DNA from: a virus
DNA: 56,129 bases
Virus record (IMG/VR): IMGVR_UViG_3300025892_000002
Strand: one strand, 5' to 3'
The notes below the pieces were generated by a model. It had not been told where the DNA came from. It saw only the letters and a program-made list of their open reading frames with translations, and did not search any database. A program made the position numbers and the translations under genes. This document shows, piece by piece, positions 9,972 to 49,649 of this stretch (positions within the stretch are counted from its first letter, which is position 1; every line of letters begins with the position of its first letter).

Positions 9972-12548
9972 CTATCTTGCTGTTGCGTATTGAAATGGAT
10001 TTTCTGCCATTGCTAAGTATACATAAGTTGCTCCACTTGCATTCCAGTTTGCTGCATCTCCACCTCTAGCTAACTTAAATCCATTAGAAAGAAAATCGTT
10101 ATAATCTGTACCATCTGTATAAGCATCTTCTGCTGCTGAACTATTTGGTAGTAGCATGTGGTATGCAGGATTATATGGATCTCTTGCATTATCTTCAATT
10201 CTCCAGTTATTTGTTGAAGTTGTTTTTTTCACCATAACCCATGCAGGTCTAAATCCTGTGTAAACAAATGTACCATCAGTTCCACTTCCATTTCCAACGT
10301 ATGATCCAGATTTAATAAAACCTTCTACATTTGCAAAGCTATATACTATTACATCTTTACCACTTGCATTAATAGCAGAATAATCTGTAAGAGTTAACAT
10401 AGTGTCAGTAGGTTTAGCTGTAAATAACCCACCACTTCCTTGATTAGCGTACCATGCACCAGTAGTAAATTCTGCGTATGAATCAGCATCTCCATTATCA
10501 TAACCTATACTCCAGTTTCTCCAATTATTAGAAGAATCTGGTAAATTTTTCATTATGACATAAGAAGGAGCAGTAGCTACTCCACCTACTGTAATACCAT
10601 GAGGAACAGTTTGAGCATTACTGCCATTACCACTATACTTCATTATAGAAAAACCACAGTCATTAGTTTGATACACACCATCTATATCTCCTGATGTATC
10701 TGTAGTTGTTGTTCCACCATTTGCTCTCCAATTCCAAGCTACATAAGTATCAGAACTATTATTATAAACAGCATCAGATCCTACAGTAAAACCATCAGAT
10801 CCAAAAGCTGTTAAACCATTTGAATCTGTTGCTTCTCCTGCAGTTGTATTAGACTCTAAAGACTTAGTAACTCCTCTTGTAGAGTCTGTAAGTTTATGGT
10901 CATTAGCACCACCTCTTTCTTTAATCCATGTTAGATCAGGTTGAAATCCTAATCCTGTTAATGCATTAGTAGAACCTGTTCCTGTATATAATAAAGGACT
11001 AAACAATTTCTGTGGAAAATTGTCATCAGTTTGTGCAGGGTCTACTGCATCTGCTGTTGGAATATTTGCAGCACAACAAGCTACAAAATCTGTACCACTT
11101 GGGTCGTATTTAAATAATCCATAACCATTTTTATCTGTATTAGTTCCTGCTGTTATTTCACCATTAAAGCTAGGATTTTGCCCTGCATTTAATACACCTA
11201 CACCAGAACCTACATTCTGACAAGTTGCAGTAAAATATCTATCTGTAGGAGTAGTAGCCCAACTTGCTTGTGGATTAGTTCCATTTGCAGGATCACCAGA
11301 ATTAGGTATAGTTCCATTTTTACCTATCCATAATTTTTTATTATCACAATCTAACCAAAAACTTAAAATATCTCCTGAAGAAAGAGAAGTTACACCTGTA
11401 CTAGTTACAGTAATTGTACCCATTCCTACTGGAGCACCTCCACCACCATACATTTGTCCAGCAGCAGTTTGCCATGTAATTATATAATATTGTCCATCTG
11501 TATTTCCTATACCAGATTGCCCTATACCAAAGGTAGGAGCATAAGAATTTACAGTTTCTGCTCTACATTCCCAGTACCATTTGCCAGTAAGCATACCAAA
11601 AGTACCTGAATTGTTACCTGCACTACTACCAGTACTTTGTAGATTACCTTCAGCTAAAGCATTATTTGCTCCCATATATGCTCCATTGTAGGTCATAAAA
11701 TTACCACCATTAGAATCAGAGTTGAAGGTTGGAGAGTCTAGCATTTGATCGTGTGCTGATAAATTAGCAGTAGTAAAATCATTATTATTTCCTGATACAT
11801 CATTACCTAAATCACTACTAGAAGCAAAATTTAAATAGTATCCATTATTACCAAACGTGAGTCCACTTGGGTCTTTGGGAATCCACACACCATTTTTTGT
11901 TTCACCATAAGAATCTGGACCATAGGATTGTCCATCATTAAAAACTATTTCTGCTAATTGGACATCACAACCTTCTTGCCCTGTACCTTTACCACTAAGT
12001 CCACCCCAACCTTGTAATACTCCATCTTGATTCATAAATGATATATCTTCATTTTGTGATATATCAGTTTGAACAGATGCACTAGAATATGTTGGTTCTA
12101 CTCCATTAACGTATAAACGAACTCTATTAGAAGCAGTTGCCTGTGTGCTATCAAATCTTAATACACAATGATACCATGCTGAAGTATCCCTAAACTGCAT
12201 ATTTGTTGTTAAACGACTATCTCCAAAGTTTCCACCAGTAAAATTAAAATTAGCAACACAATCATTATTATTTGTAAAGGGCCAGAATACATAAGCTCCA
12301 CCACTTGTTCCTGCACAGAATACATTACTACTTTGCGTAGAAGTGCTTGTAACATTATACCTTTTCCACCACCAACTATAAGTAAAAGTTTTACTACTTG
12401 TGGGAGTACCTGCTGTTATTTTTAAAGTAGTGTTATTAGCATCACTCATGCGTAAAGAATGTGCTATTTGATGGGTATAGAAATCACCACCACCTGCTGA
12501 TGCTGCTGCTGCAGCTGCTCCCATTAAATTATTTTGAAATACACCCAT
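9972..12548 (-). CDS. Tail fibre/receptor-binding protein, 858 aa, with LamG/ConA-like and SPRY-like domains
   Basis: WYHCVLRFD...RVRLYVNGV (LamG-like, ~11829-12461). GKWYWECRAE...FGIG...GDILSFWLDCDNKKLWIGKNG (SPRY signature, ~11154-11741). Confidence 0.6.
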   Translation of the reverse strand: MGVFQNNLMGAAAAAASAGGGDFYTHQIAHSLRMSDANNTTLKITAGTPTSSKTFTYSWWWKRYNVTSTSTQSSNVFCAGTSGGAYVFWPFTNNNDCVANFNFTGGNFGDSRLTTNMQFRDTSAWYHCVLRFDSTQATASNRVRLYVNGVEPTYSSASVQTDISQNEDISFMNQDGVLQGWGGLSGKGTGQEGCDVQLAEIVFNDGQSYGPDSYGETKNGVWIPKDPSGLTFGNNGYYLNFASSSDLGNDVSGNNNDFTTANLSAHDQMLDSPTFNSDSNGGNFMTYNGAYMGANNALAEGNLQSTGSSAGNNSGTFGMLTGKWYWECRAETVNSYAPTFGIGQSGIGNTDGQYYIITWQTAAGQMYGGGGAPVGMGTITVTSTGVTSLSSGDILSFWLDCDNKKLWIGKNGTIPNSGDPANGTNPQASWATTPTDRYFTATCQNVGSGVGVLNAGQNPSFNGEITAGTNTDKNGYGLFKYDPSGTDFVACCAANIPTADAVDPAQTDDNFPQKLFSPLLYTGTGSTNALTGLGFQPDLTWIKERGGANDHKLTDSTRGVTKSLESNTTAGEATDSNGLTAFGSDGFTVGSDAVYNNSSDTYVAWNWRANGGTTTTDTSGDIDGVYQTNDCGFSIMKYSGNGSNAQTVPHGITVGGVATAPSYVIMKNLPDSSNNWRNWSIGYDNGDADSYAEFTTGAWYANQGSGGLFTAKPTDTMLTLTDYSAINASGKDVIVYSFANVEGFIKSGSYVGNGSGTDGTFVYTGFRPAWVMVKKTTSTNNWRIEDNARDPYNPAYHMLLPNSSAAEDAYTDGTDYNDFLSNGFKLARGGDAANWNASGATYVYLAMAENPFQYATAR

Positions 12549-14944
12549 TATGCATATGCCTGTGAAATGATCATTTGAATATCTCCACCTACTCCATCAC
12601 TTGAAGCAGAAACTATTATGTAATCTAATCTGTCTACAGCACCATTAGCTGCTGACATGGTGGGATCTGTACCACCTATAAACTTGAAGTCTGCGTTATA
12701 AGCCATTGTACCACTTCCTCCACTCTGTGTCAAGAAAATACTTCCTGTTTGTCCTGTAACACAATTAGTTGGTTTAGCTAATGTATGTGCTGCAGTAACA
12801 GTTGTTGTAAAATTCTGTGCTGTAGCAAAGTTTAAAGCTACAGAGGTTACTCCATTAATGGCTGTAGCACAAACAGCTGCTGCTGCTCCTCCTACGACCT
12901 TTAAAGTACCTTCTAAACTTGTAGCACCTGATACTCTCATACTTCCAAGTACACCTGTTGCACCTGTAATAGTTGTAGCACCTGTAACTTTAAGTGTACT
13001 TCCCATACTTACAGCAGCTTTTAAAACTGCTGCTCCAGTTATTGTAGTAGTACCTCCTATATGTACATTGCCACTAACACATACATCATTATCAAATTCT
13101 ACTTTATCACCAAATGTTTTATTAGTAAATGTTTGTGTTGCTGCAATACCTGCTATTGTATCTGTTACTGCAGGTAATGTTAAAGTTATATTTCCTGAAA
13201 ATGCAGAATGAGCTGGTGCTTGAAGAGCAGCATAATGAGCATTACCTGATTCACAGTATAGTCTAACTTCTGATTGTGATCCACCATTCTTAACAGCAAT
13301 TAAACCACTAGATACCATAACATTTCCTGTTATAGTAACTGTCCCTCCAAGAGATGTATTACCTGCAACAGCTAATGTACTTCCTAAAGATGTAGCACCA
13401 CTAACTCTTACAGTTCCTAAGAAACCTGAATTTCCTGTTATTGTTGTAGTTCCTGTAATCTTAGCTGTACCACCTATAGAAGTATTACCTGCAATATCTA
13501 ATGTACTAGCTAATGTAGCAGCACCTGATACTCTAACAGTTCCTAAGAAACCTGAATTGCCTGTTATAGTAGTAGTACCTCCTACTTTTAAAGTAGAATT
13601 AATAGAAGCTGTACTTTGTAAATGTGTAGCTCCTACTATTGTTGTTGTACCACCTACATATAAATTACCACCTATTGTTGCATTATTAACAGATATGTTT
13701 CCTGTTATAACTGCAGGTACATTTGTTAAGTTTGCACCATCTCCAAAGAAAGCTGAAGCACATACTTTTTCAGCAAAGGTTCCATTACCTGCTACTGATA
13801 AAGTACTTTGTAAATGTGTAGCTCCTACAACTGTAAGAGTGCTTTTAAGTACTGCTGCTCCTTCAATAGATGTAGCTCCAGATACTCTAACAGTTCCTAA
13901 GAAACCTGTATTACCTGTTATAGTTGTTGCACCTAATACTTTAAGTGTACTTCCTAAACTTGTTGCTCCTTGTAAATGTGCAGCTCCTATAACTGTAACT
14001 GTACTTTTCATTACTACAGCATCTTCTAAACTTGTTGCACCTGATACTTTTAATGTTCCACCTACTATAGCATTTGCTACAGATATATTACCTGAAATTG
14101 GAATACCTGTAATATTAGTACCATCACCATAAAAAGCTGAAGCACAAACTCTTTCTGAAAAGGTTGCTATACCAGCAACTTTAAGTGTACTACCTAAACT
14201 TGTTGCTCCTTTTAAAACTGCTGCTCCTGCTATTGTAGCTGTAGAATTAAAAGTTGCTGCACCATTAACACTTAATGTACTTTGTAAATGAGCAGCTCCT
14301 GCAACTGTTACAGTTCCACCAAAATTTGAATTACCACTAACAGATATATCATCATCAAAAGTTACTTTATCACCAAATGTTTTATTTGTTAATGTATCAG
14401 TAGTAGATGTACCTACTAATGTAGCAGTACTTACTGGTAATGTTATTGTTATATTACCACTAAAAGAAGAATGTGGAGGAGATTGTAAAGCTGCATAATG
14501 TGCATTACCAGATTCACAATATAGTTTTATATTAGATTGTGCACCACCATTTTTAACTTGTATCTCTCCACCAGATACCATTACAGCACCACCTATAGTA
14601 ACAGTACCACCTATCGTAGCATTGTTTGTAACTATTAAACTAGATACTGAAACATCTCCAGTAAATGTTATGCCTGTTATATTAGATCCATCACCATAAT
14701 ATGCAGAAGCACAAACTTTATTACTAATTTGTAAATCACCTCCAACAGATGCATTACCATCTACACCAAAAGTTCCTGTAGCTTTAACTGCACCAGTAGA
14801 TATTTGTAATGCAGCATTAGTACCATCACCTGATTGTATTTGTTGTAAATCATTTGTTAAACCAGTATTAGTATTTGCACTTACATTTACTTTTAATAAC
14901 TGTTTATATGTTTCTGATATTTGTTTGTTTGTTAATGTACTCAT
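12548..14944 (-). CDS. Highly repetitive beta-helix-type tail fibre, 798 aa
   Basis: Many G(A/T)TSLGSTLKV.G.TTITGN.GFLGTVRVSG repeats; KVCASA(Y/F)(Y/F)GDG.N(I/L)T three times; large internal duplication. Confidence 0.65.
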   Translation of the reverse strand: MSTLTNKQISETYKQLLKVNVSANTNTGLTNDLQQIQSGDGTNAALQISTGAVKATGTFGVDGNASVGGDLQISNKVCASAYYGDGSNITGITFTGDVSVSSLIVTNNATIGGTVTIGGAVMVSGGEIQVKNGGAQSNIKLYCESGNAHYAALQSPPHSSFSGNITITLPVSTATLVGTSTTDTLTNKTFGDKVTFDDDISVSGNSNFGGTVTVAGAAHLQSTLSVNGAATFNSTATIAGAAVLKGATSLGSTLKVAGIATFSERVCASAFYGDGTNITGIPISGNISVANAIVGGTLKVSGATSLEDAVVMKSTVTVIGAAHLQGATSLGSTLKVLGATTITGNTGFLGTVRVSGATSIEGAAVLKSTLTVVGATHLQSTLSVAGNGTFAEKVCASAFFGDGANLTNVPAVITGNISVNNATIGGNLYVGGTTTIVGATHLQSTASINSTLKVGGTTTITGNSGFLGTVRVSGAATLASTLDIAGNTSIGGTAKITGTTTITGNSGFLGTVRVSGATSLGSTLAVAGNTSLGGTVTITGNVMVSSGLIAVKNGGSQSEVRLYCESGNAHYAALQAPAHSAFSGNITLTLPAVTDTIAGIAATQTFTNKTFGDKVEFDNDVCVSGNVHIGGTTTITGAAVLKAAVSMGSTLKVTGATTITGATGVLGSMRVSGATSLEGTLKVVGGAAAAVCATAINGVTSVALNFATAQNFTTTVTAAHTLAKPTNCVTGQTGSIFLTQSGGSGTMAYNADFKFIGGTDPTMSAANGAVDRLDYIIVSASSDGVGGDIQMIISQAYA
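13067..13351 (-). repeat. Internal duplication unit 2 of the fibre gene (aa ~532-626)
   Basis: GGTVTITGNVMVSSGLIAVKNGGSQSEVRLYCESGNAHYAALQAPAHSAFSGNITLTLP...TNKTFGDKVEFDNDVCVSGN parallels unit 1. Confidence 0.8.
14327..14614 (-). repeat. Internal duplication unit 1 of the fibre gene (aa ~111-206)
   Basis: IGGTVTIGGAVMVSGGEIQVKNGGAQSNIKLYCESGNAHYAALQSPPHSSFSGNITITLP...TNKTFGDKVTFDDDISVSGN. Confidence 0.8.
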
Positions 14945-34659: not shown

Positions 34660-34902
34660 ATGACTAAAATATATATTAGAAAAGTTCATGACGACCAAGC
34701 ATATACTATTTCTTTTGGCACAGAGAAAGATGTTAAAAATTGGAAAGAGGAACAAAAGGAATGGGAAGAGGAAGATTTTTCTGTAGCTGACGATAGTATA
34801 GAATTACTTTGTGAATTTAAAGACAATAATTTACGTGAAGTATTACAAAAAATTAACAAAGAATTAGATGTGTTAGTTAAATTGGGAGTGTTACACAGAT
34901 GA
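34660..34902 (+). CDS. Early protein, 80 aa
   Basis: AAGGAGAA RBS upstream. Confidence 0.5.
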   Translation: MTKIYIRKVHDDQAYTISFGTEKDVKNWKEEQKEWEEEDFSVADDSIELLCEFKDNNLREVLQKINKELDVLVKLGVLHR

Positions 34903-35459
34903 ACATATTTGTATTAGACAAAGACCCTATCATATCTGCACAGATGCAATGTGATAAGCACATAGTAAAGATGCCATTAGAAACTGCACAGATGTTGTGT
35001 TCTGTATGGCATAGGTATGGTTCAGCAGATAGAGTACCATACAAGGAAGCACATAGAAACCACCCATGTACACTATGGGCAGGAGATGATGCACATAATT
35101 ATGATTGGCTATGGAGACATGGCATGGAGCTATGCTTTGAGTACACCAGAAGGTATAACAATATACACAAGTGCCAAGCTATTATCATGGACTTAACAAT
35201 AGATAATGTTGGCTTTGCTTTTGAACACATGAGCAGACAAGGTACACCACACCCACTATGTATGCCAGATGTACATAAAGAAGAAGATAATGCTGTATTA
35301 TCATACAGAAGATACTATGCTAATGATAAGAAAGATATAGCTAAGTGGGAGAAGACAAGACCTATGCCAGATTGGTATGCTAGTGGTGCGTATAAGATAG
35401 ATGTTGACTTTGATATTATGGGACAAGAGTTTGCAAACTTAGGTGCGTATGATGGATAA
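34899..35459 (+). CDS. Conserved viral protein, 186 aa, with an N-terminal D-K-H-x2-K-M-x-L-E-x-A-Q motif (possibly DenV/pyrimidine-dimer-glycosylase-related)
   Basis: MNIFVLDKDPIISAQMQCDKHIVKMPLETAQML...HRNHPCTLW...NYDWL; family membership recalled only loosely. Confidence 0.3.
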   Translation: MNIFVLDKDPIISAQMQCDKHIVKMPLETAQMLCSVWHRYGSADRVPYKEAHRNHPCTLWAGDDAHNYDWLWRHGMELCFEYTRRYNNIHKCQAIIMDLTIDNVGFAFEHMSRQGTPHPLCMPDVHKEEDNAVLSYRRYYANDKKDIAKWEKTRPMPDWYASGAYKIDVDFDIMGQEFANLGAYDG

Positions 35460-38423: not shown

Positions 38424-40038
38424 TATAGAAACAGACAGCTTGAATGCAACTAAGGTTCATTGTATTGTGGCTAAAGACATAGACTCAGGGAGGGTTTATC
38501 CTTTTCCTCCAGACTTGGTAACTGAGTTCAAGTCTTGGGCACAAGGTGTCAAGCAATTTATTATGCATAATGGTTTATCTTTTGATGCACCTGTGTGTAA
38601 TAGATTGCTAGGTACTAACATTAAACCTGATCAAGTTTTAGATACACTTGTATTGTCTCAGTTGTTTTATCCTATACGTGATGGTCATTCTTTAAAAGCA
38701 TGGGGAGAGAGACTAGGCTTTCCTAAAGGAGATGTTGATACCTTTGAAGTGTACACACCAGACATGTTAGAGTATTGTAAACAAGATGTTAATATAACAC
38801 ATCAGTTATTAAATGAGATGAAGAAAGAAGGAAAAAACTTTTCACCTTATTCTATTAAGATAGAACATGATGTAAGAGTTATAGTAAACAAACAAGAACG
38901 TAATGGTTTTTATTTAGACATGAAAAAAACTATGAACTTATTAAATCTTTTACAAGATGAAGCAACTGAATTAGTTACGTGGTCTGTTAAACATTTTGAT
39001 CCTACTGTAGTAGAGTTAGTAACAAAAACAAAATACATACCATTTAATATAGGTTCAAGACAACAGATAGCAGATAGATTATCTAAAATAGGATGGAAAC
39101 CTAAACAACATACAGATAAAGGTAATATCATTATTAATGAAGCTGTATTAGATACAATAGATATGCCTGAAGCAAGAAAGTTCTCTAGGTATTTTCTATT
39201 ACAGAAACGTATAGCACAAATTAAGTCATGGATAAAAGCATGTGATGATAATGATGGTAGAGTACATGGTAGAGTAATGACACTTAAAACTATTACTGGT
39301 CGTATGTCTCACAACTCTCCTAACATGGCACAAATACCTGCAGTACGTTCACCTTATGGTAAAGAGTGTAGAGATTGTTGGACAGTAGAAGATACCTCTA
39401 CTCATTCTATTGTAGGTACTGATGCTAGTGGATTAGAGTTAAGATGTTTAGCTCACTACATGAATGATACTACATTTACAGACATACTATTAACAGGTGA
39501 TATACATACACACAACATGAAGATGGCAGGTCTAACTGATAGAGACCAGGCAAAGACTTTTATATATGCCTTTATGTATGGAGCAGGTGCTGCTAAAATA
39601 GGAAAGATAGTAGGAGAAGGTGCTAAAGAAGGACAAAGATTAATAGATAATTTCTTATCAAGTATGACAGCTTTAAAAAGAGTACGTGATGGTGTAACTA
39701 AAGCATCAGCTAAAGGAAAGATTAAAGGTATAGATGGTAGATTACTACATATACGTAGTGCACATAGTGCATTGAATACTTTATTACAAGGAGCAGGAGC
39801 AGTTGTATGTAAGATATGGCTTATTAATATAATGACAAGAGTAAGAACACTAGGGCTTGATGCTAAACTTGTAGCTAGTATTCATGATGAGTATCAGTTT
39901 GAAGTTCTAAACACAGATGTTAAAAAGTTTGGACAGATAACTAAAGATGCTATGAAAGATACAGAGAAAGAGCTACACATGAAGTGTCCTCTTGATAGTG
40001 AATGGAAGGTAGGTAAGACATGGGCAGAGACACACTAA
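38380..40038 (+). CDS. Family A DNA polymerase with 3'-5' exonuclease domain, T7-like
   Basis: Exo motifs DIETDS, NGLSFD, YCKQD. Pol motif A DASGLELR, motif B RDQAKTFIYAFMYG (Tyr at the T7 Y526-equivalent position), motif C IHDEY. Start uncertain (38380 or 38404/38407). Confidence 0.9.
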   Translation: MSIGMIGKMMRAIVDIETDSLNATKVHCIVAKDIDSGRVYPFPPDLVTEFKSWAQGVKQFIMHNGLSFDAPVCNRLLGTNIKPDQVLDTLVLSQLFYPIRDGHSLKAWGERLGFPKGDVDTFEVYTPDMLEYCKQDVNITHQLLNEMKKEGKNFSPYSIKIEHDVRVIVNKQERNGFYLDMKKTMNLLNLLQDEATELVTWSVKHFDPTVVELVTKTKYIPFNIGSRQQIADRLSKIGWKPKQHTDKGNIIINEAVLDTIDMPEARKFSRYFLLQKRIAQIKSWIKACDDNDGRVHGRVMTLKTITGRMSHNSPNMAQIPAVRSPYGKECRDCWTVEDTSTHSIVGTDASGLELRCLAHYMNDTTFTDILLTGDIHTHNMKMAGLTDRDQAKTFIYAFMYGAGAAKIGKIVGEGAKEGQRLIDNFLSSMTALKRVRDGVTKASAKGKIKGIDGRLLHIRSAHSALNTLLQGAGAVVCKIWLINIMTRVRTLGLDAKLVASIHDEYQFEVLNTDVKKFGQITKDAMKDTEKELHMKCPLDSEWKVGKTWAETH

Positions 40039-40514
40039 ACGAACAGTTAATATTATTTCCATACGAGAAAGATATTGTTTATGATTTGGAAACAGATACC
40101 AGAGAATGCAAAGACTGTAAAAAAACTTTACCATTTAAGAACTTTCCAATTAAAAGTTTTATGACTGATAATTTGGGAATATTATCAAGAGTTTGTAAGA
40201 GTTGCGAATCAAAAAGAAATTCAAAGTATAAGCAAAGAAGAAGGGAAGTTAAACTTCCTGAAGAAAATTACTGTTGTCCTGTATGTTTAAGAAATGAAAA
40301 ACAATTAAAAACAAATAAAATAGTTGTAGATGTTTCTACTTATAAACCTAGAGAACATAAATCTAAAAGAAAAAATGTGTGGTGTTTAGATCACGATCAT
40401 ATAACAGGTAAGATTAGAGGGTGGTTATGTAACTCCTGCAATGTTTCTAAAGGAAGTATAGGAGATGATTTAGAATCAGCAGAAAGATTAGTAAAATATT
40501 ATAAAGGAGAATAA
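40020..40514 (+). CDS. Endonuclease VII/HNH-type free-standing endonuclease, 164 aa
   Basis: CCPVC...WCLDHDHITGKIRGWLCNSCNVSKG matches the T4 EndoVII-family motif; overlaps the polymerase 3' end by 19 nt. Confidence 0.75.
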   Translation: MGRDTLNEQLILFPYEKDIVYDLETDTRECKDCKKTLPFKNFPIKSFMTDNLGILSRVCKSCESKRNSKYKQRRREVKLPEENYCCPVCLRNEKQLKTNKIVVDVSTYKPREHKSKRKNVWCLDHDHITGKIRGWLCNSCNVSKGSIGDDLESAERLVKYYKGE

Positions 40515-41628: not shown

Positions 41629-42492
41629 ATGAAAACTATTGATACTTTAGTACAAGATATGTATGATTTATTTAATCCTCTTGTTGATTCAAATTTAAAA
41701 GAAGAAGAAGTTGATGCTCATCTAAACTCTTTTACAGAGAGTGTAAAGAAAACATTGAAAGGTTTACTTAATGAGAAACCTAGAGAAAGAGGTAGGCTAA
41801 GACTATCTGCTATAGGCAAACCTGCTAGACAATTATGGTATGAGAAAAATTCTAAAGAGGAACCTAAACCTTTAGAGTCTAACACAAGAATTAAATTTTT
41901 GTATGGTCATCTGTTAGAGGATGTCTTAATTCTTTTAGCTAGACTTTCTGGACATGTGGTAACTGACTTACAGAAACAAGTTAATGTACATGGTATTGTA
42001 GGACATCAAGACTGTGTGATAGATGGTGTATTGGTTGATTGTAAGAGTGCATCAGGTAAAAGTTTTCAAAAGTTTGCTAATGATAATCTAGCTACTGATG
42101 ATCCCTTTGGATACATAGCACAAATCTCTGCTTATGCTGAAGGTAATGGTGTAGATGAAGCTGCTTTTTTAGCTATAGATAAACAACATGGAAGCATCTG
42201 TTTAACTCGTGTTCATTCAATGGAGATGATTAATGTTAAAGAAAGAATTAAATATCTTAAAGAAACTGTTGAGAAAGACTCTCCACCAGACAGGTGTTAT
42301 AGTGATCTACCTGATGGGGCTAGTGGTAATCGTAAGCTTGCTATTGGTTGCTTGTACTGTTCGCACAATCGTACTTGTTGGAGTGATGCTAATGAAGGTA
42401 AGGGATTACGTGTCTTTAATTATTCAAATGGTAAGAGGTATCTTACACAAGTTAAAAAAGAACCTAATGTGGAGGAGATAACTGAATGGTAA
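41629..42492 (+). CDS. Cas4/RecB-family PD-(D/E)XK nuclease with Cys cluster, 287 aa
   Basis: GHLLED, GHQD, VDCK, QxxxY (YIAQISAY), and C-terminal C...CLYCSHNRTC (CX2CX5C). Confidence 0.65.
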   Translation: MKTIDTLVQDMYDLFNPLVDSNLKEEEVDAHLNSFTESVKKTLKGLLNEKPRERGRLRLSAIGKPARQLWYEKNSKEEPKPLESNTRIKFLYGHLLEDVLILLARLSGHVVTDLQKQVNVHGIVGHQDCVIDGVLVDCKSASGKSFQKFANDNLATDDPFGYIAQISAYAEGNGVDEAAFLAIDKQHGSICLTRVHSMEMINVKERIKYLKETVEKDSPPDRCYSDLPDGASGNRKLAIGCLYCSHNRTCWSDANEGKGLRVFNYSNGKRYLTQVKKEPNVEEITEW

Positions 42493-42899
42493 GTCATTGG
42501 GTTCAATATGGAACTAAAAAACTTTTTGTTCCTGACTTAGATAAGTTTGGATTTGTTTATATCATTACTAATTTACAAACAGAAAAGAAATATATAGGAT
42601 GTAAACAATACTTTATTGGCAAGTCAAAACGAGAATCAAGATGGCAATCTTATATGGGTTCTTCAAAATATTTAAAAGAAGATATAAAAAAAGTAGGTAA
42701 GAAAAATTTTAAGTTTGAAGTGATTGATGAATTTAAAAACAAAAGAAGTTTAAAGTACTATGAGTTAGCTTATCAAGTAAAGTATAATGTACTAACTGAT
42801 TGTGTTGAAGGTTCAGACAATAATAAATATTATAATAATTATATAGGTGGTAAATTTTTTAGACCTGTAGAAAGAAAGGAGGTAAAAAATGTCAATTAA
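42486..42899 (+). CDS. GIY-YIG endonuclease, 137 aa
   Basis: GFVYIITNLQTEKKYIGCK...YMGSS...E motifs. Confidence 0.75.
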   Translation: MVSHWVQYGTKKLFVPDLDKFGFVYIITNLQTEKKYIGCKQYFIGKSKRESRWQSYMGSSKYLKEDIKKVGKKNFKFEVIDEFKNKRSLKYYELAYQVKYNVLTDCVEGSDNNKYYNNYIGGKFFRPVERKEVKNVN

Positions 42900-45680: not shown

Positions 45681-45826
45681 TGAAAGAAAGTAAACCTGCA
45701 ATAGCTACTGCTGATGTTGAATTAATTAGAAAGGTGATAGCTTATTATTTAAAATATGCTTCACCTCCTAATAAAGAAGTAGAAGAGAAGTTATTATCTC
45801 TTCACCATAGAGTAGGTAGATTATAA
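45680..45826 (+). CDS. Unlisted ORF, 48 aa (MKESKPAIATADVELIRKVIAYYLKY...)
   Basis: TAATG overlap with the nrdJ stop; hand-translated to TAA 45824-26. Confidence 0.4.
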   Translation: MKESKPAIATADVELIRKVIAYYLKYASPPNKEVEEKLLSLHHRVGRL

Positions 45827-45832
45827 AAGTTC

Positions 45833-45861
45833 TTGACTTTTAAATTAAACTATGGCATAAT
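45833..45861 (+). promoter_or_regulatory. Promoter TTGACT-N17-CATAAT heading the transferase cassette
   Basis: TTGACT 45833-38, CATAAT 45856-61. Confidence 0.55.
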
Positions 45862-45872
45862 TACATTAAAGT

Positions 45873-45905
45873 TGAGGGAGTGTTTTGTTTCCTTTCGCTC
45901 CCTCA
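45873..45905 (+). other. 5'-UTR stem-loop between promoter and RBS
   Basis: TGAGGGAGTG (45873-82) pairs with CGCTCCCTCA (45896-905) including one G-U; 13-nt U-rich loop; RBS AAGGAG at 45910-15. Confidence 0.45.
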
Positions 45906-45920
45906 TAATAAGGAGATAAA

Positions 45921-46688
45921 ATGAATACAGTTTATATAGGGTATGACCCCAAAGAAGATACAGCATATGAAGTTTTAAAGTTTACCATAGAAAGAATATC
46001 AGGTAATAACATACGTGTTGTACCATTAAGAAAAGATCTATTAGAACTTACAGGAATGTACAAACGTAAGTCTGAGTTAATAAAAGGACAGCCTTATGAT
46101 GTTATAGATGGCAGACCTTTCTCAACTGAGTTTAGCTTTAGTAGGTTTTTAGTACCTGCTTTAAATTTATATGAAGGTAAAGCTTTATTTATGGATTCAG
46201 ATATGTATTTACGTGCTGATGTAAATGAGCTATTTGAAATGTGTGATATGGATTACTATCCTGTATGGTGTGTTCATCATGACTACAACCCAAAAAATAA
46301 AACAAAAATGGATGGTAAAGAACAACACCAATACAACAGAAAGAATTGGTCTAGTCTTATAATGTTTAATTGTGGACATAGTGAGAATAGAAAGCTTACA
46401 CCTGAAGTAGTTAATACACAAACAGGTAGATGGTTACATGGCTTTGGTTGGTTGCCTGATAAAGAAGCAGACATAGGTAGAATACCTGAAGAATGGAATT
46501 GGTTAGATGGTCATTCACCACCAGACATGGATGCAAAGAATGTACACTTTACTACAGGTGGTCCTTGGTTTAAAGATTGGAAACCAAGAGGAGAAGTAGA
46601 AGGTAAGTATGCTGTTGAATGGTGTAATGATGCAGACTACTTAAAGCTTAAAGGTATAATTAAAATGGATAAGGACTACATGATATGA
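45921..46688 (+). CDS. Glycosyltransferase (GT-A fold, GT8-like), 255 aa
   Basis: FSFSRFLVP, DxD motif FMDSDMY (D92-S-D94), HFTTGGPW. Confidence 0.6.
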   Translation: MNTVYIGYDPKEDTAYEVLKFTIERISGNNIRVVPLRKDLLELTGMYKRKSELIKGQPYDVIDGRPFSTEFSFSRFLVPALNLYEGKALFMDSDMYLRADVNELFEMCDMDYYPVWCVHHDYNPKNKTKMDGKEQHQYNRKNWSSLIMFNCGHSENRKLTPEVVNTQTGRWLHGFGWLPDKEADIGRIPEEWNWLDGHSPPDMDAKNVHFTTGGPWFKDWKPRGEVEGKYAVEWCNDADYLKLKGIIKMDKDYMI

Positions 46689-49012
46689 AGATAAATTTTG
46701 TTACTTCTTTTAATGAAGATATTTATAAAATTGCAGGACATCATTTACTTAAATCAATTAAAGATAATTGGAAACCTGATATAAATGTAACATGTTACTA
46801 TCATAATTTAGATTTAAAAAACTATTCTATACTAGAAAATAACTCAGTATCTTTTAGAAAATTAGAAAAGATAGAAGATTATAAACTATTTAAAGAAGTA
46901 AATATAACACATGATGGTACAGAGAAAGGACAAATTCCTTACAACTGGAAATTAGATGCTACTAAATGGTGCAATAAAGTATTTGCTTTGACTGAGAAAG
47001 CTTTTGAATTAGCAGAAGAATCTAAAGATGCAGGTTGGTTGATATGGATTGATGCTGATTCTATGTGTCAAAAAAGATTAGTACCTGAAGACATACTTAA
47101 TATGTTAAATGATGATTGTGATATAGCTTATTCAGGTGTAAGAGATTATCCTGATGGTTCTAGGTATCTTGATACATCTTTCATGGCTTTTAATTTAAAT
47201 AAGAAACCTGCTCTTGATTTACTTGGTGACTTACGTGGTGCTTATAACTCAGGAGAACTACTACAGTACAGAGAATGGCATGACTCTTTCTTAATGGAAA
47301 GGCTTTTAAATATTTATAAAGCTCATGGTATGCATATAGAATCTGTTGAACAAATTAAAGATTACATTACACACTTTCAAGGTATAGAAAATATAAGTCT
47401 TAATCCTATTAGAGATAATGATGGTAATAGATTAGTTGCTTTATCAGAAGATAAAACATCTCAAGACATTATGCCTACAAGATATAAACAATTAGCTGAT
47501 GTTATTAGAGAATATAAACCTAAGTCTATAATAGAAGTAGGGACATGGAATGGTGGTCGTGCTATTGAAATGGCTCTTGCTGCTTTTGAAAGTCAAGATG
47601 AACTATTGTATAGAGGGTTTGATTTATTTGAAGATGGTACTTTAGAAACAGATTCAGAAGAATTTAATCTTAAAGCACACAATACTCAGAGTGCTGTTAT
47701 AAAAAGATTACAAGACTTCAGGGCTAGGATGATGGAGAAAAAGAAAGTCTTTACATTTGAGTTAGGGAAAGGTAACTCAAAAGATATACTAAAAGATCGT
47801 ACAGATTTAGATGCTGATCTTGTTTTAATAGGTGGTGGTAATAGTATAGCTACTACAAGAAGTGACTATGATAATTTAAAACATAATCCTATTATTGTTA
47901 TTGATAATTTCTTTAGAGAAGATGAAGAAAAAATAAATGCTCCTGAACAATACCAAGGAACAAATAAAATTTTTGATAGTTTACCTAAAGGAAAAAAAGA
48001 TGGAGTACGTAGATGGGTATTACCTTCTCAAGATAAAGTAAGAGGTGGTGGTTTTACACATCTTACTGTTATACTTACTGATAAAAAATTACAAGATATA
48101 CCTAAAGGTTTATTAAGTGTTCCTATTGTAGTACATCCTAGAGATTGTGTACCTAAAGATTTTATTAGGGATAACATTAGAACTAATTTAAAACTTATAA
48201 AGACTTGGCTAGGTAAATTTCCTATGCATCAAGGTAATGTTACACTTGTATCAGGTGGTCCTTATTTAAATATACCTAAATTAAAAGCACATATAAAAAA
48301 TAATCCTGATAGTAAAATTGTATGTGTTAAACATTCTTATCCTACACTTATTAATAATGGTATACTTCCTTGGGCATGTATTGTACTAGACCCTAGACCT
48401 ATTACAGGTACAAGTACACATGGTGTAGTAAGAAAAGATTTATTTAAAAAGGTAGAAAAGAAAACTAAATTCTTTGTAGCTTCCATGACTGATCCTTCTG
48501 TTACTGAACATTTAATATCTAAAGGTGCAGAAATACATGGATGGCATGCATTTACAGAATCATTACGTGATCCAGAAGAACAGAAGAAAGCAGTACATAA
48601 TAATTCTGTTACTCTTAATCCTGCTATAGGTATACCTCAAGGTGCTACTCTTATTACAGGTGGTACATGTGCTGCTATGAGAGCTTTAGGTATCTTTCAT
48701 ACTATGGGATTCAGACACTTTGACTTGTTTGGATTTGATTGTAGCATGGAAGAACCTACTAAAGAACAACAGAAAGAAACTACAGGTGCTGAAGATGAAG
48801 AACCTAAACCTAAATATTTTAAAGTAGGTATAGGAGATACACAGTATTGGACTACAGGAGAACTTCTTGCTATGGCACAAGACTGTGAAAGAACATTTGC
48901 TAATCCACCTATGGAAATGAATTTAAATTTCTATGGTAAAGGTACATTGGTAGCTGCTCTATGGAATTTACAACCTAAACCAAAAACATTTGAGGAAACA
49001 TTTAATGGATAA
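46685..49012 (+). CDS. Three-domain 775-aa protein: GT-A-like transferase + class I SAM methyltransferase (TylF/CmcI-like) + DUF115/MptE/Maf-like transferase
   Basis: WLIWIDADSM (DxD, aa ~118-127). IIEVGTWNGGRAIEMAL...GFDLFE (~47468-47914). VSGGPYLN...VCVKHSYPTLINNGILPWACIVLDP...GGTCAAMRALGIFHTMGFRHFDLFGFD (~48167-48919). Confidence 0.55.
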   Translation: MKINFVTSFNEDIYKIAGHHLLKSIKDNWKPDINVTCYYHNLDLKNYSILENNSVSFRKLEKIEDYKLFKEVNITHDGTEKGQIPYNWKLDATKWCNKVFALTEKAFELAEESKDAGWLIWIDADSMCQKRLVPEDILNMLNDDCDIAYSGVRDYPDGSRYLDTSFMAFNLNKKPALDLLGDLRGAYNSGELLQYREWHDSFLMERLLNIYKAHGMHIESVEQIKDYITHFQGIENISLNPIRDNDGNRLVALSEDKTSQDIMPTRYKQLADVIREYKPKSIIEVGTWNGGRAIEMALAAFESQDELLYRGFDLFEDGTLETDSEEFNLKAHNTQSAVIKRLQDFRARMMEKKKVFTFELGKGNSKDILKDRTDLDADLVLIGGGNSIATTRSDYDNLKHNPIIVIDNFFREDEEKINAPEQYQGTNKIFDSLPKGKKDGVRRWVLPSQDKVRGGGFTHLTVILTDKKLQDIPKGLLSVPIVVHPRDCVPKDFIRDNIRTNLKLIKTWLGKFPMHQGNVTLVSGGPYLNIPKLKAHIKNNPDSKIVCVKHSYPTLINNGILPWACIVLDPRPITGTSTHGVVRKDLFKKVEKKTKFFVASMTDPSVTEHLISKGAEIHGWHAFTESLRDPEEQKKAVHNNSVTLNPAIGIPQGATLITGGTCAAMRALGIFHTMGFRHFDLFGFDCSMEEPTKEQQKETTGAEDEEPKPKYFKVGIGDTQYWTTGELLAMAQDCERTFANPPMEMNLNFYGKGTLVAALWNLQPKPKTFEETFNG

Positions 49013-49649
49013 CTATGTATTACCTACAAAACCTAAACCTTCTGAAAAGTATTTAGAATTAATAGAAGCTTATAAACATTTACATGAAGATGATGCTAAG
49101 TTTCAAGGTATAAGTTTAATACCTTTTGCTATAGATATATATGGCATTATACAATATAATAAATGTAAATCTATTTTAGATTATGGTTGTGGCAAAGGGT
49201 ATCCTTACAAAGAACAATACAAAAATCTTAATCATAAAGGAAAGATACCTAACTTTGATAAACCTTTACATTTATGGTGGGGTATAGAAGATTTATTCTT
49301 ATATGATCCAGGTGTACCAGAACATGATAAGCTACCTACTAAAAAACATGACATGGTAATATGTACTGATGTGTTAGAACATATACCTGAAGAAGATTTA
49401 GATTGGATAATACGAGAGATATTTAGTCTATCTAGTTCAACAGTCTTTATAAACATATCTTGTGAACCTGCTTTAAAAACATTTACTACAGGTAAATATA
49501 AGGGAGAGAATGTACATGTTTCTTTATTTGATAATAAATGGTGGGTAAATAAAATGAAAGGTATATGGAAAGAGTACAAAGATTTAAAAATATACTTGAC
49601 TTGTACATCAAAAGAAGGTATAATAGGGACATGTATCAAAGGAGATTAA
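49005..49649 (+). CDS. Class I SAM-dependent methyltransferase, 214 aa
   Basis: Motif I ILDYGCGKG and DMVICTDVLEHIPEEDLDW. ATG 49005 with GAGGAAA RBS preferred over the track TTG 48990. Confidence 0.65.
   Translation: MDNYVLPTKPKPSEKYLELIEAYKHLHEDDAKFQGISLIPFAIDIYGIIQYNKCKSILDYGCGKGYPYKEQYKNLNHKGKIPNFDKPLHLWWGIEDLFLYDPGVPEHDKLPTKKHDMVICTDVLEHIPEEDLDWIIREIFSLSSSTVFINISCEPALKTFTTGKYKGENVHVSLFDNKWWVNKMKGIWKEYKDLKIYLTCTSKEGIIGTCIKGD
49596..49624 (+). promoter_or_regulatory. Promoter TTGACT-N17-TATAAT inside the methyltransferase 3' end, upstream of the holin gene
   Basis: TTGACT 49596-601, TATAAT 49619-24, AAAGGAG 49638-44, ATG 49651. Confidence 0.6.

What the first reader, a model, noticed from the sequence alone, without database searches (positions are those of the whole stretch)
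45833..49649. Separately promoted sugar-transfer and methylation cassette, including a three-domain 775-aa enzyme
A TTGACT-N17-CATAAT promoter with a structured leader precedes three overlapping genes:
- A GT8-like glycosyltransferase (DxD motif = DSD).
- A 775-aa fusion of a second GT-A-like domain (WIDADS), a TylF/CmcI-like SAM methyltransferase (IIEVGTWNGG...GFDLFE), and a DUF115/MptE/Maf-like domain (GGPYLN...VLDP...LFGFD). The Maf-like domain belongs to the family that transfers nonulosonic acids onto flagellins.
- A further class I methyltransferase.

Together these could assemble or transfer a methylated glycan. There are three candidate targets. One is virion proteins: the Ser/Thr-rich fibres are obvious candidates, and capsid glycosylation is known in mycobacteriophages and giant viruses. 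Another is phage DNA, as hypermodification against restriction. The third is the host envelope, for superinfection exclusion. I know of no characterised system with this domain fusion.
Basis: partly seen in the sequence, partly recalled or inferred. Interest (0 to 1): 0.7.

Follow-up and report, generated by a model that had tools for sequence, protein, structure and literature searches.

The report
Phage sugar-adding and methylating gene module
An uncultured marine phage carries three tightly linked genes encoding five sugar-transfer and methyl-transfer domains; this uncharacterised module recurs in several unrelated phage lineages and most likely decorates phage particle proteins (less likely the host surface) with a small methylated sugar chain.

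Summary
Three overlapping + strand genes lie at 45921-49649, behind a TTGACT-N17-CATAAT motif and a 10-bp hairpin.

Structure prediction, Foldseek, Pfam and profile searches support every domain call:
- **255 aa protein:** GT8-like glycosyltransferase, with DSD and HFTTGGPW motifs.
- **775 aa fusion:** a DxD GT-A domain, a COMT/Methyltransf_24-like SAM methyltransferase and a PF01973 (Maf/MptE-like) domain. The PF01973 domain keeps acidic residues at both positions critical in Maf.
- **~214 aa protein:** class I methyltransferase.

The gene order is identical in 80 of 80 related IMG/VR contigs and is under purifying selection. The same gene set recurs, reordered or with methyltransferase parts missing, in unrelated phage lineages. 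There it often sits inside head or tail gene blocks. No GenBank phage isolate and no PHROG family holds the fusion.

No enzyme that makes a hydroxylated DNA base was found, so DNA glycosylation is unlikely. The acceptor remains unproven. My estimates are virion-protein O-glycosylation about 0.4 and host-envelope glycan remodelling about 0.3.

"Separately promoted" holds only for the closest relatives. It is a new variant of a known kind (virus-encoded multidomain glycan enzymes, such as chlorovirus A064R). Interest is moderate to high.

The parts
45833..45861 (+). Sigma-70-like promoter candidate: TTGACT, N17, CATAAT, with TG upstream of the -10
   Evidence: Read directly and scored 10 of 12. 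It is intergenic and conserved in L009, L011 and L012, with analogous sites in L006, L030, L035 and L038. Promoter-like sites overall are not enriched over shuffles. Function is not shown.
45873..45905 (+). Leader hairpin: 10-bp GC-rich stem with a 13-nt loop, between the promoter and the ribosome-binding site
   Evidence: dG -16.7 kcal/mol, z = -2.7. A hairpin occupies the same position in relatives, with changes on both arms (GAGGGAG/CTCCCTC, GGAGGAG/CTCCTTC, GGGGGAAG/CTTCCCTC). In more distant relatives it is followed by a T-run, so it reads as a terminator after the HSP20 gene.
45910..45915 (+). Shine-Dalgarno AAGGAG, 5 nt before the ATG of the first gene
   Evidence: Sequence read.
45921..46688 (+). 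GT255: GT8-like (retaining-type GT-A) glycosyltransferase, 255 aa
   Evidence: Pfam GT8 E = 0.049, below cutoff. phrog_28018 E = 5e-54. AF2 model pLDDT 67, pTM 0.73. Foldseek hits to GlyE, GT8 3tzt, WbbM, UGGT, LgtC and glycogenin. D92-S-D94 and H209-FTTGGPW216 are invariant. No transmembrane segment.
46685..47470 (+). Fusion protein (F775), domain N (aa 1-262): DxD GT-A glycosyltransferase domain
   Evidence: Foldseek hits to GT6 alpha-1,3-GalT, BoGT6a and LARGE1. W121, D123, D125 and D200 are invariant even in 22-41 % identical relatives. It exists as a separate gene in pelagimyophage Mosig.
47471..48109 (+). F775, domain M (aa 263-475): class I SAM-dependent methyltransferase, COMT/Methyltransf_24-like
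   Evidence: Foldseek hits to Rv0187, TomG, TrmR and MeT1, target-normalised TM about 0.6. Weak sequence hits to YrrM and COMT. Relatives hit PF13578. Motif I EVGTWNGG and D313 are invariant. The FIDGGHS motif of distant relatives reads LIGGGNS here.
48110..49012 (+). F775, domain C (aa 476-775): PF01973 MptE-like / Maf-like transferase domain
   Evidence: PF01973 E = 1e-9, 38.7 bits against a cutoff of 34.6. All 16 diverse relatives match, best E = 2.5e-27. Foldseek hit to Maf 5mu5, E = 2.6e-6. In the profile alignment, invariant D569 lies opposite Maf E324 and D685 opposite Maf D415.
49005..49649 (+). MT219/214: small class I SAM methyltransferase. ATG 49005 is the preferred start; a TTG at 48990 is also possible.
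   Evidence: Methyltransf_23 E = 8e-5, below cutoff. phrog_24759 'methyltransferase' E = 1e-18. GAGGA precedes ATG 49005. Homologues lie next to GT255 homologues in CcrBL9, DLP6, ctDrO704 and L097.

Best explanation
The three translationally coupled genes encode five catalytic domains that work together as a phage-borne glycan-building module.

**Shown here**
- The domain identities.
- Strict co-linearity in the window's lineage.
- Purifying selection.
- Recurrence of the same gene set in unrelated phages. The core is GT255 plus the N(GT-A)+C(MptE/Maf-like) pair; the methyltransferase parts are optional.
- All three proteins are soluble.

**Inferred mechanism**
1. Late in infection the enzymes build a short O-linked oligosaccharide on phage virion protein(s), such as capsid, tail or fibre proteins.
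2. GT255 and the N domain each add a hexose-type sugar from host UDP-sugars.
3. The Maf-like C domain adds an ulosonic or nonulosonic acid from a host CMP-sugar. CMP-Kdo is the obvious candidate because the phage encodes no sugar-nucleotide synthesis.
4. The fused methyltransferase domain and the separate small methyltransferase O-methylate the product.

The glycan would alter virion surface properties such as stability, stickiness, or recognition by hosts or grazers. Donor sugars, order of action and the acceptor are not shown.
For: **Domain identity**
-.
- Catalytic motifs are invariant: DxD in both GT-A domains, H..GPW in GT255, and D569/D685 opposite the two Maf residues that mutagenesis showed to be critical (bioRxiv 10.1101/2020.06.03.131540).

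**Functional module**
- The order GT255 -> fusion -> MT holds in 80 of 80 IMG/VR loci.
- dN/dS is 0.10-0.36 in comparisons at 68 % amino-acid identity or more, and up to 0.50 at 59 %.
- All three genes recur, reordered, in the unrelated contig L097 (GC 44 %; portal 27 % identical).
- L095 has GT255 - FkbM methyltransferase - N+C fusion.
- L098 has a methylation-free GT255 + N+C version.
- Mosig has the N domain as a separate gene next to its GT255 homologue.

**Virion target**
- In L097 and the P0169 contig the module lies between the large terminase subunit (TerL) and portal, or directly before portal, inside the head gene block.
- In L094 it lies beside a 2461-aa collagen-like tail fibre gene. 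In CcrBL9 it follows a tail protein gene. In ctDrO704 it lies inside the structural block.
- The nearest characterised relatives of two of the three glycosyltransferase domains glycosylate proteins: Maf acts on flagellin Ser/Thr; GlyE acts on serine-rich repeat proteins; UGGT and glycogenin also act on proteins.
- There are no transmembrane segments, and no gene in the ORFs annotated here resembles a lipid-carrier, flippase or ligase gene.
- Maf enzymes can use CMP-Kdo (bioRxiv 10.1101/2020.06.03.131540).
- Precedents exist in mycobacteriophage capsid and tail-tube glycans (cited in PMC12619734) and chlorovirus A064R (PMC7826918).
Against: - There is no direct evidence for any acceptor or donor.
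- GT8 also contains LPS and O-antigen glycosyltransferases (LgtC, WbbM) among the Foldseek hits. Some source annotations of homologues read 'lipopolysaccharide biosynthesis glycosyltransferase'.
- In Mosig and Synechococcus phage S-SCSM2R the GT255 homologue sits in clusters read as host cell-wall modification genes: sulfotransferase, further GTs, KdsA/KdsB.
- In the window's own lineage the module lies between the ribonucleotide reductase (RNR) gene and holin plus the small terminase subunit (TerS), not inside a structural block.
- PF01973 also contains a pyrophosphokinase (MptE). That enzyme matches the C-domain profile as well as Maf does (E = 0.003 versus 0.013).
- The window lineage has lost the first metal-ligand Asp of the middle methyltransferase domain.
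- Fold matches have modest TM-scores, and the GT255 model is only moderately confident.
Confidence: 0.42

Rival explanations
1. The module remodels a host cell-envelope glycan during infection, such as LPS core or O-antigen, capsule, or S-layer or pilin glycan. The soluble enzymes would act on lipid-linked or completed host intermediates at the inner membrane face. The result would be to block superinfection or to stop progeny from adsorbing to infected cells and debris.
For: - GT8-type enzymes include LPS and O-antigen transferases (LgtC and WbbM among the Foldseek hits).
- Some sources annotate homologues as LPS biosynthesis glycosyltransferases.
- In Mosig and S-SCSM2R the GT255 homologue lies in clusters with sulfotransferase, extra GTs and KdsA/KdsB, which the S-SCSM2R authors interpret as host cell-wall modification genes.
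- A sigma-70-type promoter would allow early expression.
Against: - None of the three proteins has a membrane anchor, and no flippase, polymerase or ligase gene was found in the ORFs annotated.
- In several other lineages the module sits inside head or tail gene blocks.
- All characterised PF01973 glycosyltransferases act on a protein (flagellin), not on a lipid-linked glycan (bioRxiv 10.1101/2020.06.03.131540).
- The family is essentially absent from bacterial genomes, with only 2 MAG contigs that look viral. It is therefore not a borrowed host LPS operon.
Confidence: 0.28
2. The C-terminal PF01973 domain is a nucleotide-dependent (pyro)phosphotransferase like archaeal MptE, not a glycosyltransferase. 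Together with the methyltransferase it would add a phosphate or methyl-phosphate cap to a glycan built by the two GT-A domains, as the kinase-methyltransferase WbdD does on O9a antigen. This rival concerns the chemistry, not the target.
For: - The best sequence match of the C-domain profile in the PDB is MptE (8sd5, E = 0.003), marginally better than Maf (5mu5, E = 0.013).
- PF01973-like and methyltransferase domains are fused in both orders (F775 here; P0258 has PF01973 followed by a methyltransferase-like tail), which suggests coupled chemistry.
- The WbdD comparison rests on my own knowledge, not on a tool result.
Against: - The MptE match covers only the N-terminal nucleotide-binding half. 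The Maf match covers both halves and places invariant acidic residues opposite both critical Maf residues.
- Foldseek lists Maf 5mu5 among the top PDB hits, and no MptE structure appears in the top 50.
- The domain is about 300 aa, closer to the Maf core plus insertions than to the 241-aa MptE.
Confidence: 0.15
3. The cassette hypermodifies phage DNA by glycosylating, then methylating, a modified base, to evade restriction.
For: - Phage glycosyltransferases of both GT-A and GT-B fold are known to glycosylate DNA (bioRxiv 10.1101/2023.12.21.572611; PMC13326640).
- The cassette follows the nucleotide-metabolism gene RNR.
Against: - All characterised pathways need a pre-made hydroxyl on the base. 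This is 5hmC, 5hmU or 5hoC, made by a thymidylate-synthase homologue or by a cytosine C5-methyltransferase plus a 5-methylpyrimidine dioxygenase (PMC13326640; bioRxiv 10.1101/2023.12.21.572611).
- No such gene was detected among the ORFs of 100 aa or more that were scanned.
- The glycosyltransferase domains resemble GT8, GT24, GT6 and Maf, not the JGT/TarP-like or T4 BGT-like DNA glycosyltransferases.
- In other lineages the module is embedded in head or tail blocks.
Confidence: 0.05

Closest known systems
Maf (motility-associated factor) flagellin nonulosonic-acid glycosyltransferases, e.g. Magnetospirillum magneticum Maf (PDB 5mu5), Geobacillus kaustophilus Maf and Clostridium botulinum Maf
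   Same: - Same Pfam family, PF01973.
- Foldseek match to 5mu5.
- Conserved GxGPS-like loop.
- Acidic residues at the positions of Maf E324 and D415.
   Different: - It lacks the flanking Maf domains; GT-A and methyltransferase domains are fused instead.
- The context is a phage, with no flagellin and no CMP-sugar synthesis genes nearby.
- E324 is replaced by Asp.
- Sequence similarity is borderline (E = 0.013).
- Donor and acceptor are unknown.
Chlorovirus PBCV-1 A064R (638 aa: beta-L-rhamnosyltransferase + alpha-L-rhamnosyltransferase + 2-O-methyltransferase acting on the capsid N-glycan; PMC7826918)
   Same: - Virus-encoded, soluble, single polypeptide that combines two glycosyltransferase domains with a sugar methyltransferase.
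- A 638-aa chlorovirus protein appears among the BFVD structural hits (M1IF74, E = 1.8e-7). Its identity as an A064R orthologue is my inference from its length.
   Different: - Domain order here is GT-MT-GT, not GT-GT-MT.
- The second transferase here is PF01973/Maf-like.
- No sequence-level homology (about 10 % identity).
- The host is eukaryotic for A064R and bacterial here.
- The target here is untested.
Mycobacteriophage virion glycosylation cassettes (Che8, Corndog, Myrna type; Freeman et al. 2023, as cited in PMC12619734 and PMC12801897)
   Same: Phage-encoded glycosyltransferases placed in or near structural genes that decorate capsid and tail-tube proteins. In other lineages the present module sits in head or tail blocks.
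   Different: - Different glycosyltransferase families.
- Actinobacterial hosts.
- No Maf-like domain.
- I could not read that paper here, so details rest on secondary citations.
GT8 protein/LPS glycosyltransferases (S. pneumoniae GlyE, N. meningitidis LgtC, glycogenin) and GT24 UGGT
   Same: GT255 shares the fold, the DxD motif and the H-x-x-x-G-x-P-W type C-terminal motif.
   Different: - The Pfam GT8 score is below the gathering threshold (13.6 versus 24.3 bits).
- It is shorter (255 aa).
- It forms a phage-specific clade (phrog_28018, unknown function).
Two-domain glycan polymerases (LARGE1, chondroitin synthase) and the E. coli O9a chain terminator WbdD (kinase + methyltransferase)
   Same: They combine two transferase activities in one chain. 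LARGE1 and CHSY3-CHPF appear among the whole-protein Foldseek hits.
   Different: There is no evidence of polymerising activity here. The WbdD analogy rests on my own knowledge and was not tested.

Membership tests
PF01973 MptE-like / Maf glycosyltransferases (C domain) | Matches the Pfam PF01973 model above the gathering score | tested here: met
   38.7 bits against a cutoff of 34.6, E = 1e-9. All 16 diverse relatives match, best E = 2.5e-27.
PF01973 MptE-like / Maf glycosyltransferases (C domain) | Acidic residues at the positions of Maf E324 and D415, shown by mutagenesis to be critical | tested here: met
   In the profile-versus-5mu5 alignment, invariant D569 (LDPR) lies opposite E324, and D685 (GFD; invariant among the 22 full-length homologues, at least 90 % among diverse C-domain relatives) lies opposite D415. 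The criticality of these residues is from bioRxiv 10.1101/2020.06.03.131540. The first position is a Glu-to-Asp replacement.
PF01973 MptE-like / Maf glycosyltransferases (C domain) | Fold similarity to solved Maf (5mu5) | tested here: met
   Foldseek E = 2.6e-6, probability 1.00. TM is only 0.25-0.29 because the alignment spans several domains.
Maf flagellin glycosylation systems (whole system) | Maf-type flanking domains, plus genomic association with flagellin and CMP-nonulosonic-acid synthesis genes | tested here: not met
   The flanks are GT-A and methyltransferase domains. No flagellin or CMP-sugar synthesis gene was found among the ORFs of the window that were scanned.
Maf flagellin glycosylation systems (whole system) | Transfers a CMP-activated ulosonic or nonulosonic acid to Ser/Thr of a protein | not testable with these tools
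   Needs enzyme assays or glycoproteomics.
CAZy GT8 / Pfam PF01501 (GT255) | Matches Pfam PF01501 above the gathering score | tested here: not met
   13.6 bits against a cutoff of 24.3, E = 0.049. A few close homologues carry a precomputed PF01501 hit.
CAZy GT8 / Pfam PF01501 (GT255) | GT-A fold with a DxD motif and a C-terminal His-containing H..G..PW metal/donor motif | tested here: met
   Foldseek hits to GlyE, 3tzt, LgtC, glycogenin and UGGT, with moderate model confidence (pLDDT 67). D92/D94 and H209...G213-G214-P215-W216 are invariant. The motif definition is from my own knowledge of GT8.
GT-A glycosyltransferases (N domain of the fusion) | Rossmann-like GT-A fold with a DxD motif | tested here: met
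   Foldseek hits to GT6 alpha-1,3-GalT (E = 1e-6) and BoGT6a (target-normalised TM 0.56). D123/D125 are invariant in relatives down to 22 % identity. There was no sequence-level PDB or Pfam hit, so no CAZy family can be assigned.
Class I SAM methyltransferases, COMT/Methyltransf_24 type (M domain) | SAM-binding Rossmann fold with motif I (GxG) and an acidic residue after beta-2 | tested here: met
   Foldseek hits to Rv0187, TomG, TrmR and MeT1. EVGTWNGG and D313 are invariant. Relatives match PF13578. Weak COMT/YrrM sequence hits.
Class I SAM methyltransferases, COMT/Methyltransf_24 type (M domain) | Complete metal-binding triad (COMT D141, D169, N170 equivalents) | tested here: inconclusive
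   D407-N408 are present. The first ligand (D of FIDGGHS in distant relatives) is Gly in the window lineage, which reads LIGGGNS. The domain is still under purifying selection (dN/dS 0.18-0.26).
Phage DNA glycosylation (hypermodification) systems | A co-encoded enzyme that makes a hydroxylated base: a thymidylate-synthase homologue, or a cytosine C5-methyltransferase plus a 5-methylpyrimidine dioxygenase | tested here: not met
   None was found among the ORFs of 100 aa or more that were scanned with Pfam or PHROGs. The requirement is taken from PMC13326640 and bioRxiv 10.1101/2023.12.21.572611.
Chlorovirus A064R-type multidomain capsid-glycan enzymes | Sequence homology to A064R and action on the major capsid protein glycan | tested here: not met
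   There is only fold-level similarity to chlorovirus proteins in BFVD (about 10 % identity). The target cannot be tested here. The resemblance is one of function and architecture only.

The most novel reading that the evidence does not exclude
An abundant, uncultured lineage of marine podovirus-like phages, and several unrelated phage lineages, coat their own virion proteins with an acidic, O-methylated glycan. A phage-specific Maf-like protein glycosyltransferase would draw on host CMP-Kdo or a nonulosonic acid. If so, this would be the first Maf-type enzyme working outside flagellar glycosylation. It would also be the first virion-glycosylation system described for phages of marine Gram-negative bacteria.
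Probability: 0.25. Interest if true: 0.8.

Novelty: new variant of a known kind. Interest (0 to 1): 0.6.

Why it matters
Virion glycosylation by virus-encoded enzymes is established only for giant algal viruses and some mycobacteriophages. In marine phages, glycosyltransferase and methyltransferase genes are usually set aside as host cell-wall modification genes without any test.

This module takes up about 3.7 kb of a 56-kb genome. Its presence and gene order are the same in every related contig examined, and it occurs in hundreds of ocean virome contigs. It has moved between unrelated phage lineages, which implies a strong and portable benefit.

It also extends the PF01973/Maf family beyond flagella and archaeal pterin metabolism. 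It yields a compact, soluble set of five domains that could be expressed and assayed directly. That would make the question of whether marine phage particles are glycosylated, and with what, experimentally approachable even without a cultured host.

Tried and rejected
- **GenBank phages:** tblastn of the 775-aa protein, of its C domain alone (E up to 1), and of a divergent relative (P0258) found nothing in 50,697 phage records. blastn of the locus found only a 49-nt holin match.
- **Family libraries:** PHROGs and NCBIfam have no family for the fusion. PADLOC has none for any of the three proteins.
- **PDB sequence searches:** the whole-protein profile gave nothing. The N-domain profile gave only chance hits.
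- **Relationship between the two GT-A domains:** hhalign of the N domain against GT255 was not significant (probability 1 %), although the DxD and S-F/L-M-x-F-N segments line up. I therefore do not claim the two are related.
- **Bacterial and archaeal genomes:** the scan found only two MAG contigs, both apparently viral. I rejected the idea that this is a borrowed host operon.
- **Cultured relatives:** by portal similarity the nearest are Pelagibacter phages HTVC023P and HTVC027P and Roseobacter phages CRP-901 and CRP-902. None gave a tblastn match to the fusion protein. HTVC027P, whose replication and packaging region (first 26 kb) I read, has a different layout there without the cassette.
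- **Ser/Thr content:** fibre-like proteins have 20-25 % S+T. This is unremarkable for beta-rich fibres and was not used as evidence.
- **Weak lead:** MT219's hit to the pseudaminic-acid-associated methylase TIGR03587 (E = 0.09) is not significant and was not used.
- **Paper access:** the Freeman 2023 paper could not be read.

Full report
**Observation**

The first junction is an ATGA overlap. The third gene more probably starts at ATG 49005, which is preceded by GAGGA and overlaps the fusion's stop as ATGGATAA.

The holin gene starts one base after the third gene ends, so the cassette is also tightly packed against the lysis and packaging genes.

The upstream elements were read directly:
- TTGACT-N17-CATAAT at 45833-45861, with TG upstream of the -10.
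- A hairpin, then AAGGAG.

The hairpin (45873-45905) folds at -16.7 kcal/mol, z = -2.7.

A consensus promoter match alone is not more than chance in this 32 % GC genome: 74 promoter-like sites against 77 expected in shuffles. What supports this site is its intergenic position and its conservation in the closest relatives. Analogous TTGACT...TATAAT sites occur after the ribonucleotide reductase (RNR) gene in some more distant relatives. Many other relatives carry an HSP20 gene there and no promoter. In those the hairpin follows the HSP20 stop codon, and in distant ones it carries a T-run like a terminator. "Separately promoted" is therefore a feature of this sub-lineage, not of the module.

**Genome context**

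The window is essentially a whole phage genome of about 56 kb:
- The large terminase subunit (TerL), portal, major capsid protein and tail/fibre proteins are on the minus strand.
- Primase-helicase, family A DNA polymerase, nucleases and class II RNR are on the plus strand.
- These are followed by the cassette, a GTA-type 3-TM holin and the small terminase subunit (TerS).

There are no tRNAs. The portal is about 40 % identical to those of Pelagibacter phages HTVC023P and HTVC027P and Roseobacter phages CRP-901 and CRP-902. None of those isolates gave a tblastn match to the fusion protein. The part of HTVC027P I read has a different layout without the cassette. The host is unknown. A low-GC marine alphaproteobacterium is an inference from GC content, the holin type and the portal similarity.

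**Domain identities**

*GT255*
- Weak Pfam GT8 hit, below threshold.
- Strong hit to phrog_28018, a family of unknown function.
- The AF2 model (pLDDT 67, pTM 0.73) matches GT8 and GT24 retaining GT-A enzymes: GlyE, 3tzt, WbbM, UGGT, LgtC and glycogenin.
- D92-S-D94 and H209-FTTGGPW216 are invariant in 17 homologues.

*F775 overall*
- The AF2 model built on 22 homologues has mean pLDDT 76.5, with three well-folded blocks separated by low-confidence linkers.

*F775, N block (aa 1-262)*
- Foldseek against the PDB returns GT6 alpha-1,3-galactosyltransferases and BoGT6a.
- It has no sequence-level match in Pfam or the PDB.
- Its W121, D123, D125 and D200 are invariant down to 22 % identity.

*F775, middle block (aa 263-475)*
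- Foldseek returns COMT-like O-methyltransferases: Rv0187, TomG, TrmR and the sugar O-methyltransferase MeT1.
- Weak sequence hits to YrrM and COMT.
- In relatives it hits Pfam Methyltransf_24.

*F775, C block (aa 476-775)*
- The whole-chain Foldseek hits include Maf 5mu5, and also the two-domain enzymes LARGE1 and chondroitin synthase.
- It passes Pfam's threshold for PF01973. All 16 diverse stand-alone relatives do too, with E as low as 2.5e-27.
- A profile of those relatives finds archaeal MptE (8sd5, E = 0.003) and Maf (5mu5, E = 0.013) in the PDB.
- In the Maf alignment, D569 of LDPR lies opposite E324 and D685 of GFD lies opposite D415. D569 is invariant. D685 is invariant among the 22 full-length homologues and at least 90 % conserved among diverse relatives. 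E324 and D415 are the two residues reported as essential for Maf activity (bioRxiv 10.1101/2020.06.03.131540).

*Third protein*
- A small class I methyltransferase (Methyltransf_23, E = 8e-5; phrog_24759, E = 1e-18).

None of the three proteins has a transmembrane segment.

**Conservation and co-occurrence**

The fusion has more than 800 clusters (at 90 % identity) of relatives in metagenomes, full-length down to 58 % identity. It also has 2,294 representatives at 50 % identity in an exhaustive HMMER search.

In 80 of 80 IMG/VR loci that are long enough, the order GT255 -> fusion -> MT is kept. RNR lies upstream and TerS downstream, with the holin detected next to the cassette in the closer relatives. 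dN/dS is 0.10-0.36 in comparisons at 68 % identity or more and reaches 0.50 at 59 %. The N domain evolves fastest. Only two contigs in 185,579 bacterial and archaeal genomes matched, and both are MAG contigs that look viral. The family is therefore viral.

The same genes recur in other arrangements in unrelated phages:

| Locus | Arrangement |
|---|---|
| L097 (GC 44 %; portal 27 % identical) | MT219-like, then GT255-like, then an 841-aa N-M-C fusion, between TerL and portal |
| Contig carrying P0169 | A 265-aa gene and a 779-aa fusion directly before an SU10-type portal |
| L095 | GT255-like, FkbM methyltransferase, and an N+C fusion without the middle domain |
| L098 | GT255 plus N+C only, with no methyltransferase at all |
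| P0258 | PF01973 first, then a methyltransferase-like tail; lies beside a 2461-aa collagen-like tail fibre gene |
| Pelagimyophage Mosig | The N domain as a separate gene next to its GT255 homologue |
| Caulobacter phage CcrBL9, Stenotrophomonas phage DLP6, podovirus ctDrO704 | GT255 and MT219 homologues adjacent |

The core is GT255 plus the N/C pair, and methylation is an optional decoration.

**Most likely mechanism**

I take the following as shown: a functional, mobile, phage-specific module with two DxD GT-A transferases, one Maf/MptE-like transferase and up to two SAM methyltransferases, all soluble.

The following is inferred: the module builds a short methylated glycan. The acceptor is not shown.

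I rank virion proteins first, at about 0.4, for these reasons:
- In several lineages the module sits inside head or tail gene blocks.
- The nearest characterised relatives of two of the three transferase domains glycosylate proteins.
- There is no membrane anchor and no lipid-carrier machinery.
- Precedents exist in mycobacteriophages (cited in PMC12619734) and in chlorovirus A064R and A111/114R (PMC7826918).

For the Maf-like domain, a host CMP-ulosonic acid such as CMP-Kdo is the economical donor. The phage encodes no sugar-nucleotide pathway, and Maf enzymes can use CMP-Kdo (bioRxiv 10.1101/2020.06.03.131540). This is an inference.

**Rivals**

- **Host-envelope glycan remodelling (about 0.28).** It is supported by the LPS-type members of GT8 and by the context of GT255 homologues in Mosig and S-SCSM2R, which lie next to sulfotransferase, further GTs and KdsA/KdsB.
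- **The C domain is a phosphotransferase (about 0.15).** PF01973 also contains the MptE pyrophosphokinase. Sequence alone cannot exclude this, and it is orthogonal to the question of target.
- **DNA hypermodification (about 0.05).** Every known pathway needs 5hmC, 5hmU or 5hoC, made by a thymidylate-synthase homologue or by a cytosine C5-methyltransferase plus a 5-methylpyrimidine dioxygenase (PMC13326640; bioRxiv 10.1101/2023.12.21.572611). None was found here.

**An unexplained detail**

In distant relatives the middle domain carries the canonical FIDGGHS motif. Its Asp aligns with the first metal ligand of COMT. In the whole window lineage the motif reads LIGGGNS. The SAM-binding motifs and D407-N408 remain, and the domain is under purifying selection. 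It may be a methyltransferase with an altered metal site, or a SAM-binding scaffold. This lowers confidence that both methylations occur in this particular phage.

**Comparison with known systems, and novelty**

The C domain is a member of Pfam PF01973 and works most like Maf. The system is not a Maf flagellin-glycosylation system, because the flanking domains and gene context were tested and not met. GT255 is GT8-like by fold and motifs but fails Pfam's threshold.

The closest functional analogue is chlorovirus A064R, a GT+GT+MT protein, with no sequence homology. No paper in the searchable library links PF01973/MptE-like domains to phage biology. No isolate in GenBank phages carries the fusion.

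I rate it a new variant of a known kind, namely virus-encoded multidomain glycan-building enzymes. Interest is about 0.6. The module is abundant, portable and directly assayable, but its target is unproven, and phage glycosyltransferase/methyltransferase clusters as such are not surprising.

Noticed in passing
window 49596-49624: The best promoter-like site in the region (TTGACT-N17-TATAAT, 11 of 12) lies inside the 3' end of the methyltransferase gene, 27 nt before the holin start at 49651. It may be a lysis or late promoter.
   Followed up: no
window 45681-45826; L003, L092, L093 and others: Many relatives carry an HSP20 (small heat-shock protein) gene between RNR and the cassette. The window instead has a 48-aa ORF that starts directly after the RNR stop codon; its C-terminal part is conserved in L065.
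   Followed up: partly
window 48773-48817 (F775 aa 697-711): The acidic loop KETTGAEDEEP[KR]PKY is largely invariant (12 of 15 positions) yet predicted disordered (aa 697-709 have pLDDT < 50). It lies just after the GFD catalytic motif. It could be a lid, an acceptor-binding loop or a self-modification site.
   Followed up: no
window 47831-47848 (F775 aa 383-388): The Methyltransf_24 motif FIDGGHS of distant relatives reads LIGGGNS in the whole window lineage. The Asp aligned with COMT's first metal ligand is therefore lost, although the domain stays under purifying selection.
   Followed up: partly
L097 4907-5452; contig carrying P0169: In other lineages the module has sugar-metabolism neighbours: a 181-aa SIS-domain isomerase between TerL and the module in L097, and a mannose-6-phosphate-isomerase-like cupin upstream in the P0169 contig. 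These may hint at the sugars used.
   Followed up: no
L089 (Synechococcus phage S-SCSM2R) 6995-10520: The GT255 homologue (annotated GT24) lies two genes from phage-encoded KdsB, with KdsA next (CMP-Kdo synthesis). No PF01973 domain was found within 7 kb.
   Followed up: partly
L092 (NCBI MN694094.1, 59,985 bp) 5122-7443: The fusion gene appears split into a 167-aa and a 480-aa ORF with a gap between them, in an otherwise syntenic genome. This is probably a frameshift or sequencing error rather than a real split.
   Followed up: no
window 34899-35459, 40020-40514, 42486-42899: The replication block holds a pyrimidine-dimer DNA glycosylase (DenV-like), an endonuclease VII and a SegE-type GIY-YIG homing-endonuclease-like gene.
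   Followed up: no
window 12548-14944 (minus strand): A 798-aa virion protein has 25 % Ser+Thr and several internally repeated domains (multiple stretches matching phrog_5070, phrog_36281 and phrog_7964). It is a candidate fibre and a possible glycan acceptor.
   Followed up: no
L098 6458-7018: In the methylation-free variant lineage, a 2OG-Fe(II) oxygenase gene lies between RNR and the GT255 homologue. Its relation to the module is unknown.
   Followed up: no
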